A DNA stretch of 20,376 bases, taken from positions 1-20,376 of IMG/VR virus record IMGVR_UViG_648276651_000003, one strand, 5' to 3'. Source of the stretch: a virus (Duplodnaviria > Heunggongvirae > Uroviricota > Caudoviricetes). Position numbers and translations under genes: made by a program. Below, in pieces: positions 1-6,055 of this stretch (its first letter is position 1; each line of letters starts with the position of its first letter). The notes beneath the pieces were generated by a model that made no database searches, was not told the DNA's origin, and was given only the letters and a program-made list of their open reading frames with translations.

Positions 1-40
1 AAAAAAAAAAGGGGGGGGGCGGGGGGCCCCCCGTTTTTTT
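1..40. other. Low-complexity homopolymer block (A10 G9 C G6 C6 G T8) at the window edge
   Basis: Read directly; successive homopolymer runs are not typical of native coding or att sequence; possible contig-end or sequencing artefact. Confidence 0.5.
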
Positions 41-101: not shown

Positions 102-1244
102 TCATACTGCTTTTTTACCAACAATGATCCACTCTTTACCGCGGTCATCATTGTATCTGTCAGTCATTTTCATTGTTTTGTGGCCCAATAGTTTCTGGGT
201 GTCTATCCCTTGCTCACGATACAAGCGCTCGGAAAGAGATCTCTGTTCATGGAAAGTCGGAGCTGTTCCCTCTTCCCAGGTTAGACCGCTTTTATCCCGT
301 GCTTTCTTGAACGTTGAAGTAAGTGTCTTGGCTGACACTTGGTCACCACGACTAGCCTGTGAGGTGCTATGGCGAAAATGAACAAGGTATTTACTCACCA
401 CAGCATCTCTACATTTTGAAATAACATCACTCAGAGTAATATTTAACGCTTCATTTCTGAGAGAAAGGGGAATGGCTAATCGGGTTCCTGTTTTCTCCTG
501 CTCAATATGCAGCATATCATCCCATACATCCGAAAACTTCATATTGCAAATATCTCCGAGGCGTTGCCCTGTTACAATGGCAAGCAACATTCCACATTGT
601 AAATAAGGTTGTTGTTGTTCGGCGGATGTATAAATAGCCTTCCATTCCTCCAGAGATAGCCTTTGTCTGCTTATCTTGTTTCGTGGCTGTTTCGTTGCCT
701 GGGCAGGGTTGTATCCTGGCGGAACGTGACCAGCATGTTGAGCCTCCTTAAAAACATCTATTAGTACCATGCGTACAACTTGAGCCATCCTGTTATGACC
801 CTCTGCCTTAACAGCATCTGTTATTTCGGAAATATCAAGTGCTGTTATATCTTTTAGATATTGCATTCCACAATGTTCCCGAAAAAGACGGATTGGTTTA
901 GCTTTCTGTCGAAAAGAGTTTGGGCGCAGCTCGTTGTGTTTCAATCTTTCCTCCTGCACCAATTCATATTTGTCGAGCCATGAAGAAACTGTAATATCCG
1001 TGCGGTTTCCTTTCATGCGAGCTAGGCGCTCGTTAATACCAAGGATCTGCCTGGTGCGCTGCTCTGCAATAATAGTATTTGCTTCACTTGCCACCTGCTT
1101 TGCTTCAGCTTCGTCCGTGCCGAGGCTGTGAAAACGACCAGATATCGGGTGTTTGTATTGCCAGTAAACCTTTCCGGTACGTTTATCAAGTTTGCAATAT
1201 AGGTTTGGAATAGTGATTTTATGGGTACGCGGTCTAGCTGCCAT
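102..1244 (-). CDS. int: Tyrosine-type site-specific integrase (lambda Int family)
   Basis: 380-aa ORF; C-terminal region ...HEQRSLSERLYREQGIDTQKLLGHKTMKMTDRYNDDRGKEW resembles the lambda Int catalytic C-terminus (conserved R, H-x-x-R, terminal Tyr); ATG at 1244 overlaps the xis stop. Confidence 0.9.
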   Translation of the reverse strand: MAARPRTHKITIPNLYCKLDKRTGKVYWQYKHPISGRFHSLGTDEAEAKQVASEANTIIAEQRTRQILGINERLARMKGNRTDITVSSWLDKYELVQEERLKHNELRPNSFRQKAKPIRLFREHCGMQYLKDITALDISEITDAVKAEGHNRMAQVVRMVLIDVFKEAQHAGHVPPGYNPAQATKQPRNKISRQRLSLEEWKAIYTSAEQQQPYLQCGMLLAIVTGQRLGDICNMKFSDVWDDMLHIEQEKTGTRLAIPLSLRNEALNITLSDVISKCRDAVVSKYLVHFRHSTSQASRGDQVSAKTLTSTFKKARDKSGLTWEEGTAPTFHEQRSLSERLYREQGIDTQKLLGHKTMKMTDRYNDDRGKEWIIVGKKAV

Positions 1245-3530: not shown

Positions 3531-3649
3531 TCAATAAACATGCAGATACCAACGGTTACTACGGCAATCAGCACCCAGCAGATCACATCCAAAATGGCGG
3601 CGAACCGACGGAGGGTGTATTTGCTGTAATTCTCAGGATCCATATTCAT
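3515..3649 (-). CDS. Small hydrophobic ORF (44 aa), putative membrane peptide
   Basis: Not in the ORF track; my translation MNMDPENYSKYTLRRFAAILDVICWVLIAVVTVGICMFIEWWTA; start overlaps the ParB-like stop as ATGA (3646-3649). Confidence 0.35.
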   Translation of the reverse strand: MNMDPENYSKYTLRRFAAILDVICWVLIAVVTVGICMFIEWWTA

Positions 3650-4431
3650 ACCGCCTCCCCAAGCACCCAGCGCAGAGCCTCGGCATATTCGCCACTGGCA
3701 TCTTCGAGTGCTTTTGTAATTTCCTTGCGTGATTTGATACGCGGCTTTGCTTCACCAAGAACCTGGCGCTGTCGCCGGGCTTTTTCATGGCCCGTGGTGC
3801 CGGCGGTCGCTGTCTCGATCTGCTTGACCTTCTCCCGTTGCTCTTCGGGTTTAAGCGATGCCAACTGACGCGCCTGGGTAACGGTAATTGTGCCAGCCTC
3901 TACCGCTTCCCGGACGGCCTGGGTAGCATCGAGAAGGGAGAGCGTTGCTCGAACGGTCTGAACGCTGCAGCCAAACAACACCGCAATGTCGTCCTCATCG
4001 AGCCCGCGGTCGAGCGCATCTGACATTTTTTTAGCCCGGCCAAGCGGCGTATCAGGTCGGCGAATTTCGTTTTCGCTTACCATGTATTTAGCCATCTGAT
4101 TTGCTGATCCGCGCTTAACGACCCCAGGAACAAGCAGTGGGGCTTTGCCCTCTTTCAAAAGAAGCTTATTTGCCTCCAGGGTATGTTTTACGCGCTGACG
4201 GCCTACAACTACGCAGGTGAGCCCCGTTTCAGGGTCTTTCCAGACGATGATAGGTTCCAGTACACCCAGCTCTTTGATGTTCAGAACCATTCCTTCGTCG
4301 ATAGGAAGGTGGACCCGTTCATCGTAAAGCGGGTGTGTTTTGTCGGTAACCAGATGCAGGCTTTCAGGTTCGAACGTTAAAACGTTCGTTTTGCCGCTGG
4401 CGCCGTATACAACCTTTGAGTCTTTAGCCAT
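3646..4431 (-). CDS. ParB-like nuclease-domain protein (ParB/sulfiredoxin fold)
   Basis: 261-aa product; N-terminal region LNIKELGVLEPIIVWKDPETGLTCVVVGRQRVKH resembles the ParB N-terminal domain, followed by an HTH-like segment; phage-borne ParB-like nucleases are a known family. Confidence 0.65.
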   Translation of the reverse strand: MAKDSKVVYGASGKTNVLTFEPESLHLVTDKTHPLYDERVHLPIDEGMVLNIKELGVLEPIIVWKDPETGLTCVVVGRQRVKHTLEANKLLLKEGKAPLLVPGVVKRGSANQMAKYMVSENEIRRPDTPLGRAKKMSDALDRGLDEDDIAVLFGCSVQTVRATLSLLDATQAVREAVEAGTITVTQARQLASLKPEEQREKVKQIETATAGTTGHEKARRQRQVLGEAKPRIKSRKEITKALEDASGEYAEALRWVLGEAV

Positions 4432-4730
4432 CAGAGAGCCTCCACGTTACGGAAGCTGGTAGGGCAAATTGCTTTCAAGTCGCGCATTGCTTCGAGGACA
4501 TGTAGATTTGTGCGATTCTTGGTGTGTCGCTCGGTCAGACGATCACACTCTTTCGCCCATGATTTGACCTCTGCGAGAAGGGCGTCACGTTCGGTGCGCG
4601 TCTGGCGCAGAGCTACATTCGAAACATCGAGGACGGTAGCCAGTTCCTTGATGATTGCTGCCTGTTCTGGTGGCATAGTTTTGGCTATTTCGTACGCCTG
4701 TTTAATCAGTTGTTTTGCTGTCTTAGCCAT
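4431..4730 (-). CDS. Hypothetical protein, first gene of the leftward early operon (99 aa from ATG 4730)
   Basis: ATG at 4730 with GGAGA RBS; the track ORF start at 4781 is a TTG extension; no arginine-rich N-like motif seen. Confidence 0.5.
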   Translation of the reverse strand: MAKTAKQLIKQAYEIAKTMPPEQAAIIKELATVLDVSNVALRQTRTERDALLAEVKSWAKECDRLTERHTKNRTNLHVLEAMRDLKAICPTSFRNVEAL

Positions 4731-5268
4731 CTTTTGTTCTCCATCTGACGCGCTGCAACGCGTAAATTTTGGGTGCAGCAACCCAACCCATGAGAGTGGG
4801 TGAATAGCTGGTTAAAATTTCTTGCTGATGGGGGACCGCCACTGCAATGGCGGTACGTTAGTTCTCCACACAACGAAAAGAGCACTGATACGATTAGCTA
4901 TTGCGTTCGGATCGGCGCACGGCTTGTGTGTTTGCCCGTTCACCGCCAATGCTCTCATCTGTTATGTCCCGGACTCTTCCCGGGCGTCACACCTTTTCGC
5001 CGCGCTGGTGGGGCGCACGTCGTGCCTGAACACTTAGCTTGCACATTCCGGTTGTTCTGAGAGGCATGGATAAAGGTAACTCTCTGGCGGCTAACGCTGC
5101 ATGTGCCATACAGCGGTTGCGAATATTGCCGTTCACAACTGGAAGCGCACTCCTTCAGTTACAAACCGATCCCCACCGGAAAGAAGGGGAATGCGCTTCC
5201 ATGTTGTGTTCTGTTCATCCTTGTCCGTAAGTTGCGTCATGTGCCGACGAATAGAAGATAATCATAAA

Positions 5269-5305
5269 TTGCGAGTAACGCAATAGTTAAGTGCGTAAAG
5301 CGCAA
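5269..5305. promoter_or_regulatory. Left operator region (OL-like): two 15-bp palindromes TTGCG-N5-CGCAA
   Basis: ttgcgagtaacgcaa (5269-5283) and gtgcgtaaagcgcaa (5291-5305) read directly; same half-site as the sites between cI and cro. Confidence 0.55.
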
Positions 5306-5315
5306 ATTTAAGGCG

Positions 5316-5340
5316 AAAAAAAAAGGCCTCGAAGGAGGCC
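5316..5340 (-). terminator. Intrinsic terminator downstream of cI (leftward)
   Basis: Hairpin ggcctc-gaag-gaggcc (5325-5340) followed on the minus strand by a T9 run (plus-strand A9 at 5316-5324). Confidence 0.6.
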
Positions 5341-5359
5341 TAGTTTATGATGATGAATG

Positions 5360-6055
5360 CTATCCATGCCGTTTAAAGGACTGAGACTGGCTTATTAAAA
5401 CCTTTCCGTAGATATAGAATCTGTGTTCATTCTCTTTAGTTATATTCCATTCTCTATAACGAGGGTTATCAGAGATGACTAGCAGTTGGTCTGGTATCAT
5501 CTGCAGGCGTTTAACATAAACTTTTCCATCAAAACCAAAGACGTAAATCCCATCCCCATCGAACTCATTGATAGTTACGTCCACAAAGATTAGGTCGCCA
5601 GGCTCAATCGTTGAGGCCATGCTATCACCGCGAACGTTGATGACCTTTACTCCAGATGGAGTCCTGCCACCAAACATTGCCAATGCCTGATCATTGCTGA
5701 ACTCGATAGCATGAATGACATCTATGACGTCACTACCGTGTATATGTCCTGCCCCGGCGCTTGCGCTCACATCAAGTACCTCGACTCTGTATACATCCAC
5801 ATCCTTTACGGGAGATGCATGTTTTTCACTGTTTATATGTACAGTAGTATCATTTTCGTCAGAGGTAAATAGGTCAGGTACACTTACGCTTAAAGCTTGA
5901 GCAAGTCGGTTAAGTGTCTGTTCTGAAAACTGCTTTTGTTTACCAGTTTCAAGCCTGGAAATATTGGCAGCATCAACGCCCACAGCTTCTGCAAGCTCTG
6001 CGATTTTAATGTTCTTCGCTAAGCGAAGTTGTCGTATGCGAGATCCTATTTTCAT
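5360..6055 (-). CDS. cI: CI-like prophage repressor (XRE-type HTH plus S24 LexA-like peptidase domain)
   Basis: N-terminal HTH (RIRQLRLAKNIKIAELAEAVGVDAANISRLETGK); C-terminal S24 signature with Ser in ...VRGDSMASTIEPGDLIFVD and Lys in ...VYVKRL; divergent from the cro-like gene. Confidence 0.85.
   Translation of the reverse strand: MKIGSRIRQLRLAKNIKIAELAEAVGVDAANISRLETGKQKQFSEQTLNRLAQALSVSVPDLFTSDENDTTVHINSEKHASPVKDVDVYRVEVLDVSASAGAGHIHGSDVIDVIHAIEFSNDQALAMFGGRTPSGVKVINVRGDSMASTIEPGDLIFVDVTINEFDGDGIYVFGFDGKVYVKRLQMIPDQLLVISDNPRYREWNITKENEHRFYIYGKVLISQSQSFKRHG

What the first reader, a model, noticed from the sequence alone, without database searches (positions are those of the whole stretch)
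4731..5268. About 0.5 kb ORF-poor leader between OL/pL and the first leftward gene
No minus-strand ORF of 60 codons or more lies between the left operators and the first early-left gene (ATG 4730), an unusually long untranslated leader for a phage early operon. It contains GC-rich inverted repeats (ccgcca/tggcgg around 4840-4857; cccgg/ccggg around 4969-4986) and a 26-codon arginine-rich minus-strand ORF (5067 down to 4987, MPLRTTRNCKLSVQARRAPHQRRRKG by my translation). Candidates are a nut-like antitermination site, a structured RNA or a small basic peptide.
Basis: partly seen in the sequence, partly recalled or inferred. Interest (0 to 1): 0.45.

Follow-up and report, generated by a model that had tools for sequence, protein, structure and literature searches.

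The report
Conserved structured RNAs in phage leader
The apparently empty half-kilobase between a Klebsiella prophage's early-left promoter and its first gene holds conserved folded non-coding RNA modules: two hairpins of a type that RNase III cuts in E. coli, flanking a widespread ~150-nt RNA that I could not find described, also present in phage P1, Shiga-toxin phages and about a quarter of complete E. coli genomes.

Summary
The ORF-poor leader is real: about 525 nt from the predicted pL start to ATG 4730. It is non-coding but not empty. On the minus strand it carries three conserved RNA modules.

- A (5210-5132) and C (4966-4869) are long hairpins of one type. They are homologous to the hairpin upstream of DicF in the E. 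coli Qin prophage. Published RNase III cleavage maps inside that hairpin, by my coordinate inference.
- "B-core" (5116-4968) lies between them. It is a multi-helix RNA with strong covariation: 94.7% of cells paired, 14 compensatory pairs, 0/500 shuffles reached the observed values.
- B-core has no Rfam 15 match and was unannotated wherever I saw it. It is in ≥126 IMG/VR contigs, P1 (upstream of ban), ε15-like phages, Stx2c/cdtI phages and 1474 of 5426 complete E. coli genomes.
- About half of the copies follow a cI gene directly. About 29% adjoin a phage tRNA-Arg(UCU) or tRNA-Ile(CAU).

Best reading: RNase III processes the leader as a polycistronic ncRNA precursor and releases B-core as a discrete RNA. 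What B-core does is unknown.

A nut/N system and a basic peptide are rejected. A put-like antiterminator role remains a live rival. Its peptide translation was partly wrong.

The parts
5261..5310 (-). OL operators and pL promoter-like site. The -10 TATGAT is at 5266-5261; predicted start is about 5254.
   Evidence: Operator-type inverted repeats resemble those at OR. Promoter scan. The same OL/pL sequence in contigs L024 and L101 is followed directly by the B-core H2 hairpin. The transcription start is not mapped.
5235..5249 (-). Short 5'-proximal hairpin CGUC-GGCACAU-GACG. It is a truncated copy of the B-core H2 hairpin.
   Evidence: Read directly from the sequence. Compared with L024 and L101, where the full H2 sits at this place after the same pL. 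Inference.
5132..5210 (-). Module A: long branched hairpin. Layout: CACAAC (5208-5203), AU, GGAAGCGCAUUCC, apical part, GGAGUGCGCUUCC, AG, UUGUG (5139-5134). Candidate RNase III processing site; the cut predicted by homology is near 5141/5140.
   Evidence: MFE -39.7 kcal/mol, z = -5.1. It also occurs in mEp390, LLS, Flotzy, Klebsiella phages and many IMG/VR contigs. Consensus helix has 16 pairs, 7 with compensatory changes, and the E. coli Qin copy aligns with it. RNase III cleavage of the Qin copy is inferred.
4968..5116 (-). B-core, a conserved multi-helix RNA with no Rfam 15 match. Parts: H2 5116-5095 (loop UAUGGCACAU); P3 5086-5057; invariant strand CCGGAAUGUGCAAG 5051-5038; variable hairpin region 5037-5017; P5 5016-5002 (7-nt loop CCCACCA); GGUG 4993-4990; P6 4984-4968 (loop GAAGAGU).
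   Evidence: nhmmer hit 5115-4945, 118.8 bits; single copy in the window. ≥126 true copies and 88 distinct sequences in IMG/VR. RNAalifold. Pair counts: 94.7% of cells paired, 14 pairs with compensatory change, 0/500 shuffles, slid controls 24-51%. No Rfam match. Not coding.
4869..4966 (-). Module C: long hairpin of the same type as A. Layout: CAUAAC, AGAUG, AGAGCAUUG, 56-nt variable insert, CAGUGCUCU, UUUC, GUUGUG. Candidate RNase III site that separates B-core from the early-left mRNA.
   Evidence: MFE -37.2 kcal/mol, z = -3.0. The arms follow B-core in 33 distinct arm pairs, with inserts of 32-167 nt. The helix is kept, with many G-U pairs on this strand. Intermediates between types A and C occur in L010 and L096.
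4835..4854 (-). It belongs to the UTR that travels with the first gene.
   Evidence: The block 4731-4865 is conserved immediately upstream of the phrog_15091 gene in ST101-KPC2phi6.3, KpF5 and 733R5, independently of the upstream modules. In L024, L046 and L133 an A-type hairpin abuts the same GUGUGGAGA junction.
4431..4730 (-). First early-left gene (99 aa, phrog_15091, unknown function), followed by a ParB-like gene at 3646-4431.

Best explanation
The leader is a polycistronic non-coding RNA precursor at the 5' end of the early-left (pL) transcript of a lambdoid Klebsiella prophage.

Transcription from pL first makes a small H2-like hairpin. It then makes hairpin A, the ~150-nt double-pseudoknot-type RNA 'B-core', hairpin C, and the 5' UTR of the first gene.

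A and C are about 20-bp, nearly continuous helices of one conserved type. Host RNase III cuts them in the 3' arm where the upper helix meets the lower CACAAC/GUUGUG helix. It does this at the homologous hairpin of the E. coli Qin dicBF operon, where the cut creates the 190-nt DicF precursor.

Cutting at A and C would do three things:
- remove the pL-proximal ~110 nt;
- release B-core as a discrete RNA of roughly 185 nt (about 5140 to about 4955);
- leave the early-left mRNA with a processed 5' end about 140 nt upstream of its start codon.

Where a phage tRNA-Arg follows C, its 5' end lies inside the GUUGUGG of the hairpin's 3' arm, so the same cut would also feed tRNA maturation.

What is shown: the modules exist, are conserved, are non-coding, fold as stated (covariation), and are homologous to the Qin hairpin.

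What is inferred: RNase III cleavage in this phage, release of B-core, and its stability.

The biochemical role of B-core itself is not known. Its near-invariant unpaired or pseudoknot strands across phages of several enterobacterial genera argue that it binds a conserved host machine.
For: 1. Modularity and conservation. Blastn splits the leader into blocks that recur independently in other phages.

2. B-core structure.
- 44 diverse sequences gave four helices with compensatory changes.
- 94.7% of cells are paired, 14 pairs have changes on both sides, 0/500 shuffles reached this, and slid controls gave 24-51%.

3. Non-coding status.

4. A and C are one hairpin type.
- Same lower helix, internal loop and upper helix.
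- Consensus folds.
- Many U-G/G-U pairs on the transcribed strand in C.

5. The Qin copy.
- It lies at L138 1921-2007, between ydfC and dicF; Rfam DicF is at 2133-2184.
- Ragunathan et al. 2023 (bioRxiv 10.1101/2023.04.14.536235), after Faubladier 1990, report a 190-nt DicF species. It is absent in an RNase III mutant, and its 5' end is cut between +813 and +814.
- Counting 190 nt back from the end of the DicF U-run (2189) gives G2000.
- Counting +813/+814 from a start at 1187 gives C1999|G2000.
- Both place the cut at ...UGCGCUUCC|GGUUGUGG, inside the A-type hairpin.

6. dicBF is the pL-equivalent operon of Qin (dicA like cI, dicC like cro). So the same hairpin type sits in the same kind of operon.

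7. A/C-type hairpins directly abut the UTR of the first gene in several phages. They abut the 5' end of tRNA-Arg in 22 loci.
Against: - No transcript data exist for this phage or, to my knowledge, for any B-core. Cleavage at A and C is extrapolated from one homologue.
- My mapping of that cleavage rests on a stated RNA length and an assumed dicBp start.
- Many B-cores have only C, or neither hairpin. P1 has no C. L043, L101 and L109 have a terminator-like hairpin instead. Excision by two flanking cuts therefore cannot be the general rule.
- Most A-type copies carry an A·C mismatch on the transcribed strand that would be a G·U on the other strand. The lower helix is quasi-palindromic, so strand assignment for A rests on context and on the asymmetric apical part.
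- The explanation leaves the function of the main element open.
Confidence: 0.55

Rival explanations
1. B-core, alone or with A/C, is a cis-acting, RNA-only processive antiterminator or anti-Rho element. On this reading it is a functional analogue of HK022 put. It folds as it leaves RNA polymerase and makes the elongation complex read through terminators and the long untranslated stretch (ncRNA modules, tRNAs) ahead of the early-left genes.
For: - Position. In L024, L101 and SopranoGao, B-core starts within about 10 nt of the predicted start.
- In L051 and L060, an HK022-type OL/pL segment (85-87% identical) is followed by B-core where HK022 has putL.
- 77 of 151 copies lie directly downstream of a cI-type gene on the same strand.
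- No N-like gene is present.
- In several lambdoid relatives (BUCT708/L010, L096, L112, mEp390/L022 type), a strong intrinsic terminator or DicF-like terminator lies between the RNA modules and the first ORF. Some read-through mechanism is therefore needed there.
- B-core is always co-oriented with downstream cargo, including untranslated tRNAs.
- put works even when severed from the transcript (PMC9378689), so RNase III processing would not exclude this role.
Against: - No sequence similarity to putL or putR in any locus.
- Only one copy in the window and none in the pR operon, whereas put and nut come as L/R pairs.
- No minus-strand intrinsic terminator is predicted between 4730 and the end of int in this prophage, so there is no obvious need here.
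- 45 of 151 copies sit in a small divergent cassette of ε15-like phages, where long-range antitermination is not evidently needed.
Confidence: 0.2
2. B-core is a cis-regulatory sensor or catalyst in the leader. It would be a riboswitch-like aptamer or a self-cleaving ribozyme that sets expression or processing of whatever lies downstream.
For: - The architecture is typical of such RNAs: variable-length helices (P3 inserts 20-44 nt, P4 region 16-26 nt) around near-invariant junction strands.
- Two candidate pseudoknots exist: H2 loop GCACAU with AUGUGC, and P5 loop CACC with GGUG. The second shows one C-G to A-U double change.
- It is promoter-proximal, and a hairpin or terminator follows it.
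Against: - There is no conserved alternative pairing between the aptamer-like part and a terminator or Shine-Dalgarno sequence.
- The downstream cargo is heterogeneous: tRNA, ban, ParB operon, small ORFs, or nothing but a terminator. That is unlike a riboswitch class.
- The first pseudoknot never varies in my set, so it is untested.
- No candidate ligand or cleavage site can be named.
Confidence: 0.1
3. A and C are selfish, quasi-palindromic repeat elements (MITE-, ERIC- or Correia-like) that have spread in phage leaders. On this reading any RNase III cutting is incidental and the leader has no organised function.
For: - They are multi-copy, occur in either order relative to B-core, and hit on both strands.
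- A in the window is flanked by TGAAC on both sides. Removing it joins GGATGAAC and GGCAAT into a 14-nt string found in HK022 putL.
Against: - Orientation relative to transcription is constant in all copies seen.
- The asymmetric apical motif (GUCGUUAAAU-type) and the conserved internal loop are maintained.
- C is positioned to the nucleotide relative to P6 of B-core and to the tRNA-Arg 5' end.
- This does not explain B-core at all.
Confidence: 0.08
4. The leader is a lambda-type nutL site (boxA plus boxB) serving an N-like protein, or it encodes a small basic peptide.
For: - Position downstream of pL.
- A GC-rich hairpin at 4984-4968.
- UGCUCUUUU at 4883-4875 resembles boxA.
- A 26-codon ORF is present.
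Against: - No N-like ARM protein is encoded.
- The hairpin loop is 7 nt and is the last helix of a larger conserved RNA.
- The boxA-like string is base-paired in C and varies (UCUCAGC, UCUUUCC) in relatives.
- No protein family matches.
Confidence: 0.02

Closest known systems
RNase III processing hairpin of the dicBF operon of the E. coli Qin prophage (precursor of the 190-nt DicF species; Faubladier et al. 1990; Ragunathan et al. 2023)
   Same: Modules A and C share with it the lower helix (C/U)A(C/U)AAC / GUUGUG(G), the internal loop, the upper helix RAAGCGCA.../...UGCGCUUCC and the apical GUCGUUAAAU-type motif. Both lie in a long untranslated stretch of the repressor-controlled early-left operon of a lambdoid prophage.
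   Different: In Qin the hairpin is followed by a D-type module and DicF. The window has no DicF and instead has B-core between two such hairpins. The hairpin has not, to my knowledge, been defined as a family, and cleavage is demonstrated only for the Qin copy.
HK022 putL/putR antiterminator RNAs
   Same: An RNA-only element immediately downstream of pL in a lambdoid phage without N. In contigs with HK022-type OL/pL, B-core occupies the place of putL.
   Different: There is no sequence or secondary-structure similarity: put is two stem-loops of about 70 nt, and B-core is about 150 nt with four helices. There is no right-operon copy. Antitermination is untested.
Lambda N leader (nutL plus the RNase III site upstream of N)
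   Same: A pL leader that contains an RNase III-cleavable hairpin affecting the first gene's mRNA (established knowledge of lambda).
   Different: Lambda's leader is about 220 nt and has boxA/boxB and N. None of these is present here.
Processed phage immunity RNAs (P1/P7 c4, P4 CI, N15 CA) and stable RNAs co-transcribed with phage tRNAs (T4 species 1 and 2 RNAs); large phage-associated RNAs next to tRNAs (GOLLD, ROOL)
   Same: Discrete structured RNAs excised from phage early transcripts. There is frequent adjacency to phage tRNA genes: 38 of 132 B-cores.
   Different: No homology: the Rfam C4 family and all others are negative on B-core. c4 and CI are cut by RNase P and act by antisense pairing to nearby targets, and no such target repeats were seen here. 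GOLLD and ROOL are 500-800 nt and occur in other phyla. These resemblances come from my own knowledge and are leads, not tests.

Membership tests
HK022 put RNA | Sequence and structure homology to putL/putR (two stem-loops, about 70 nt) | tested here: not met
   Blastn (word size 7) with putL, putR and the HK022 immunity region found no put match in the window or any fetched locus. Only a split 14-nt string flanking module A is shared.
HK022 put RNA | One copy downstream of pL and a second downstream of pR | tested here: not met
   A single B-core in the 20-kb window, which covers the pR operon up to the late genes (nhmmer with --max).
HK022 put RNA | Terminator read-through in cis without phage protein; binding to the RNAP β' zinc-binding domain | not testable with these tools
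   Needs reporter assays or biochemistry.
Lambda-type nut site with N | boxA (CGCUCUUA-like) followed by a boxB hairpin with a 5-nt GNRA-like loop | tested here: not met
   The P6 loop is 7 nt (GAAGAGU/A) and belongs to B-core. The boxA-like UGCUCUUUU is paired inside C, lies downstream of the hairpin rather than upstream, and is variable in relatives.
Lambda-type nut site with N | N-like arginine-rich-motif protein encoded in the early-left operon | tested here: not met
   PHROG scan of the left-operon proteins found unknown-function families, ParB-like and integrase, with no N. The first gene product has no ARM.
Qin dicBF-type RNase III hairpin (modules A and C) | Homologous arms and fold | tested here: met
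   Alignment A2 includes the Qin copy: 16 consensus pairs, 7 with compensatory change. The C-type arms are in A3. The nhmmer score for Qin comes from a seed that contained it, so it is not independent.
Qin dicBF-type RNase III hairpin (modules A and C) | Location in an untranslated stretch of the repressor-controlled early-left operon, same strand as the operon | tested here: met
   Window; Qin; mEp390, LLS and others.
Qin dicBF-type RNase III hairpin (modules A and C) | Cleavage by RNase III | not testable with these tools
   Published only for the Qin copy. My mapping of that cut into the hairpin is an inference from lengths and coordinates.
DicF sRNA (RF00039) | Match to the Rfam model | tested here: not met
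   No hit in the window at gathering score. The model does find DicF in the K-12 locus.
Any Rfam 15 family (for B-core) | Covariance-model match | tested here: not met
   0 hits at gathering score in the window. Nothing at E ≤ 10 within 4731-5268. Nothing on B-core in five other loci that carry it.
Protein-coding gene or small peptide | Conserved open frame, start codon and codon-wise variation | tested here: not met

The most novel reading that the evidence does not exclude
B-core is a new class of enterobacterial phage RNA with an activity of its own. The most interesting reading is an RNA-only modifier of the transcription elongation complex that replaces put/nut in N-less lambdoid phages and protects untranslated cargo such as tRNAs and DicF-like sRNAs. 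Alternatives are a ribozyme, a ligand sensor, or a decoy for a conserved host RNA-binding machine. It would then be a widespread, undescribed functional RNA present in phage P1, Stx2c and cdtI phages, and more than a quarter of complete E. coli genomes.
Probability: 0.3. Interest if true: 0.85.

Novelty: new variant of a known kind. Interest (0 to 1): 0.66.

Why it matters
Early-operon leaders of temperate phages are where lambda's N/nut and HK022's put were found. Here the same position holds a different, conserved RNA.

- B-core recurs in classical and medically relevant phages: P1, Shiga-toxin and CDT phages, and Klebsiella and Salmonella prophages. It is in about 27% of complete E. coli genomes. 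It has no Rfam match, and every genome and phage record I examined leaves it unannotated or annotates a probably spurious ORF over it.
- If B-core modifies transcription, translation or RNA processing, it would be a new RNA-based phage-host interface.
- Even if it does not, the work gives a concrete processing model that ties the long-known but unexplained untranslated region of the dicBF operon to a general design of lambdoid early-left leaders as ncRNA/tRNA production platforms.
- The claims are directly testable with P1 or E. coli prophages and an rnc mutant.
- It would also let annotators remove spurious 'hypothetical proteins' called over these modules.

Tried and rejected
- **Rfam.** Gathering score on the whole window and E ≤ 10 on 4400-5500 gave nothing in the region.
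- **put homology.** None found.
- **Protein families.** PHROG and Pfam on all eight small ORFs of both strands gave nothing, apart from one E = 0.05 chance-level hit.
- **Second copy.** nhmmer found no second B-core in the pR operon.
- **Genome-contig scan.** The 14-mer is too short for 596 Gb. Of the 120 stretches returned, only Kosakonia sacchari held a real B-core.
- **Second IMG/VR scan.** It was anchored on H2 to find variants of the invariant strand. The H2-loop/AUGUGC pseudoknot therefore stays untested.
- **Literature.** The Pas sRNA preprint (late region), the mEp021/Gp17 nut paper and the P1vir Δhfq transcriptome do not concern this element. Two RNase III cleavage-site surveys cite DicF only in passing. 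Faubladier & Bouché 1994 is not held. Literal sequence strings of B-core and A occur in no relevant paper.
- **Ideas considered and dropped.** tRNA-like T-loop for the P5 loop (position 5 is C, not A). Similarity to 5S rRNA, RNase P RNA or tmRNA (only short shared words, no cmscan hit). ops/RfaH site (CGGGUAG is not CGGUAG). CsrA sponge (only two GGA motifs). Hairpin C as an intrinsic terminator (the U-run is not conserved in relatives).
- **Rho loading.** A C/G-ratio scan shows only a modest C-rich stretch at 4864-4761. It is not decisive.
Full report
**Setting.** The window is a lambdoid Klebsiella prophage, 97% identical over this region to Klebsiella phage 1 LV-2017 and a set of Kp48xx prophages.
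- Integrase is at 102-1244 (-).
- A leftward operon of unknown-function genes plus a ParB-like gene ends with its first gene at 4431-4730 (-).
- A cI-type repressor is at 5360-6055 (-), with a terminator at 5341-5324.
- cro-like and cII-like genes run rightward. A Q-like gene is at 10649-11029, followed by lysis and head genes.
- No N-like protein was found.

**Observation.** Between the operator/promoter region (5261-5310; TTGCG-N5-CGCAA-type repeats as at OR; TTAACT-18-TATGAT) and ATG 4730 there is no minus-strand ORF of 60 codons.
- An ORF-free 540 nt is what non-coding DNA gives by chance. The point of interest is that a phage keeps so long a non-coding stretch.

**The leader is modular and conserved.** Blastn against phage records breaks it into blocks that recur separately.
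- Window about 5210-5134 ('A') recurs in E. coli phages mEp390, LLS and Flotzy.
- Window about 5121-4944 recurs in Salmonella SPN1S-type, Enterobacter BUCT554, Klebsiella SopranoGao, cdtI, Stx2c-converting phages and P1/P7.
- The last ~135 nt travel with the first gene.

**B-core.** The central block has an invariant 14-mer, CCGGAAUGUGCAAG. Together with the loci fetched earlier and the window, this gave 134 pattern matches, of which 126 are true elements, and 88 distinct 110-nt sequences.

Comparing flanks showed the full unit. In order it contains:
- a hairpin H2 with loop (U)AUGGCACAU(G);
- AGCGGU;
- a helix P3 closing an insert of 20-44 nt;
- GUAG plus the invariant strand;
- a variable hairpin;
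- a 4-bp helix P5 with a 7-nt loop YUCACCA;
- GGCGAU..GGUGUGAC;
- a 5-bp helix P6 with loop GAAGAGA/U.

In the window this is 5116-4968.
- RNAalifold on 44 diverse copies recovers H2, P5 and P6, with 10 pairs showing double changes.
- With P3 and two candidate pseudoknots added, 94.7% of 1311 cells are standard pairs. Fourteen pairs carry compensatory changes. No shuffle of 500 reaches the observed values. Sliding the partners by 1-3 columns drops pairing to 24-51%.
- The pseudoknot CACC:GGUG shows one C-G to A-U swap. The H2-loop:AUGUGC pairing never varies, so it is neither supported nor contradicted.
- Single-sequence folding energy of B-core is unremarkable.

B-core is not coding.
- No frame is open in more than 15 of 44 copies.
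- Insert lengths show no 3-periodicity.
- No Pfam or PHROG family matches.

B-core matches no Rfam 15 family at gathering score, or at E ≤ 10 in the region. None of the genome and phage records I inspected annotates an RNA there. Several carry 'hypothetical proteins' over it.

A 286-nt query made of the cdtI B-core, hairpin C and the start of the next module is covered at ≥80% in 1474 of 5426 complete E. coli genomes, always with no RNA feature.

**Hairpins A and C.** A (5210-5132) folds at -39.7 kcal/mol, z = -5.1. Directly after P6 comes C (4966-4869), at -37.2 kcal/mol, z = -3.0.
- Both have a lower helix (C/U)A(C/U)AAC / GUUGUG(G), a small internal loop, and a 9-13-bp upper helix: RAAGCGCA.../...UGCGCUUCC in A, and AGAGCAYUG/CAGUGCUCU in C.
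- Intermediates exist in L010 and L096.
- C-type arms follow B-core in 33 distinct arm pairs, with inserts of 32-167 nt.
- Consensus folds keep the helices, with some compensatory changes and many G-U pairs on the transcribed strand.

An E. coli genome search unexpectedly led to K-12. In the Qin prophage, between ydfC and dicF, there is an A-type hairpin (L138 1921-2007). Another module and then DicF (Rfam hit 2133-2184) follow it.

Ragunathan et al. (bioRxiv 10.1101/2023.04.14.536235), confirming Faubladier et al. 1990, report a 190-nt DicF species. It disappears without RNase III, and its 5' end is cut between +813 and +814.
- Counting 190 nt back from the end of the DicF U-run (2189) gives G2000.
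- Taking +1 at 1187 (TTGACC 1152-1157, TAATCT 1175-1180) puts +813/+814 at C1999|G2000.
- Both place the cut at ...UGCGCUUCC|GGUUGUGG, in the 3' arm of the A-type hairpin. This mapping is my inference. The papers I could read do not describe the hairpin.
- dicBF is the pL-like operon of Qin.

**Contexts of B-core.** Among 151 copies in phage and viral loci:
- 77 lie within 1.5 kb downstream of a cI-type gene on the same strand;
- 45 lie between the terminase and portal modules of ε15-like (Uetakevirus) phages, opposite to the late genes and directly behind a σ70-like promoter;
- at least 11 lie upstream of ban in P1-like elements, 15 nt after tRNA-Ile(CAU).

In total, 38 of 132 copies adjoin a same-strand tRNA. 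In 22 of them tRNA-Arg(UCU) follows C, and its 5' end (GUGGCAU) starts inside GUUGUGG.

Promoter-proximal position:
- In L024 and L101 the same OL/pL as in the window is followed at once by H2.
- The window instead has a truncated H2-like hairpin (5249-5235), then A, then the full B-core.
- In L051 and L060 an HK022-type OL/pL segment precedes B-core where HK022 has putL.

A and B-core occur in either order: A follows B-core in mEp390 and the L022 group. In several relatives the RNA array ends in a strong or DicF-like terminator before the first ORF.

**Mechanism.** I commit to the processing model. The leader is a precursor of non-coding RNAs. RNase III cuts A and C as it cuts the Qin homologue. 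B-core is released as a discrete RNA. The early-left mRNA, or a tRNA in other phages, gets a processed 5' end.
- Shown: the modules, their folds, their homology and their contexts.
- Inferred: cleavage and release in this phage.
- Not explained: what B-core does. Its near-invariant single-stranded and pseudoknot segments across phages of Escherichia, Klebsiella, Salmonella, Enterobacter and Kosakonia suggest a conserved host partner.

The main rival is a put-like, RNA-only antiterminator or anti-Rho role.
- For: position, lack of N, terminators downstream in relatives, and untranslated cargo.
- Against: the single copy, no put similarity, and no predicted intrinsic terminator in this left operon.

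A riboswitch or ribozyme reading and a selfish-repeat reading of A/C cannot be excluded. nut/N and a peptide are rejected.

**Comparison and novelty.** The hairpin type is known only as 'the RNase III site' of dicBF. Treating it as a family spread through lambdoid early-left leaders is new as far as I could find. B-core has no Rfam family and no hit in the paper library, including literal sequence strings. The library lacks most subscription journals, so an earlier description cannot be ruled out. As a kind of thing, a processed structured RNA in a phage early transcript, it has precedents: DicF, c4, P4 CI and the T4 stable RNAs. I therefore file it as a new variant of a known kind, with a substantial chance that B-core is a new functional RNA class.

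**Limits.**
- There are no expression data.
- The transcription start is not mapped.
- Pseudoknots are untested.
- Alignments were seeded with an exact 14-mer, so variation in that strand is invisible.
- The genome-wide taxonomic scan failed for statistical reasons.

Noticed in passing
window 5249-5235 (-): A short hairpin CGUC-GGCACAU-GACG lies right after the predicted pL start. It looks like a truncated duplicate of the B-core H2 hairpin. In contigs L024 and L101, the same OL/pL is followed by the complete H2/B-core at this position.
   Followed up: partly
window 5218-5211 and 5134-5125 (-); L017 (HK022) about 3766-3753 (-): GGATGAAC and GAACGGCAAT flank module A. Joined, they spell GGATGAACGGCAAT, a 14-nt string of HK022 putL stem II. 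TGAAC is repeated on both sides of A, as if A had been inserted into a put-like remnant. No other put similarity was found.
   Followed up: partly
L138 (E. coli K-12 Qin) 2003-2112; L016 (phage cdtI) about 2650-2790; L024, L026 and others: A further conserved 'D' module follows A/C-type hairpins (GUUGUGG...CCACAAC closing helix). One variant has complementary loops GCUGAU/AUCAGC. It makes up most of the 190-nt DicF precursor in K-12. The GUUGUGG strand could pair either upstream, closing A/C, or downstream, closing D.
   Followed up: partly
L003 (mEp390) about 2590-2700; L022, L051, L060; L010 about 2690-2760: The RNA arrays of several lambdoid phages end in a GCUGUGUGUAGUCUUGGCGG...CCGCC(C)UUUU hairpin. 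It resembles the DicF 3' part and terminator but is not called by the Rfam DicF model. These may be DicF-like sRNAs with other seed regions.
   Followed up: no
L037 4959-4783 and 4154-3983 (-): One IMG/VR contig carries two B-core copies about 800 nt apart on the same strand. The second is divergent (GCUGGAAUGUGCAAG, altered P5).
   Followed up: no
L003 2208-2450 (mEp390_036); L002 3032-3550 (733R5 URC09959); L161 1341-1595; L011 2561-2812; L014 2501-2620: Annotated 'hypothetical protein' CDSs overlap B-core or A/C modules. The 733R5 first gene is extended about 70 codons upstream through them. These calls are probably spurious.
   Followed up: partly
L010 (Stenotrophomonas phage vB_SmeS_BUCT708), also BUCT709: Phages recorded as infecting Stenotrophomonas carry an enterobacterial-type B-core (81% identical to the window's) behind a lambdoid cI/cro pair. 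The host assignment, or the record, may deserve a check.
   Followed up: no
window 13-32: A G6CG6C6 palindrome with T-runs on both strands lies beyond the 3' end of the integrase gene. It is a strong bidirectional terminator-like site at the prophage edge.
   Followed up: no
L016 (phage cdtI) 192-380 (-): Rfam C4 antisense RNA and isrK hits lie side by side in the antirepressor region of phage cdtI. They are unrelated to the pL leader modules.
   Followed up: no
L003, L006, L027, L046, L048, L094, L119 (just 3' of B-core P6): In place of hairpin C, these loci share another conserved block (AUAUCAGCCAUUCACGYUAAGCAU...GYGYUUAGCGGGACUGGAAGAGUUACCACUUGGAGACGGUCC...). It is a further, uncharacterised module of these leaders.
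   Followed up: no
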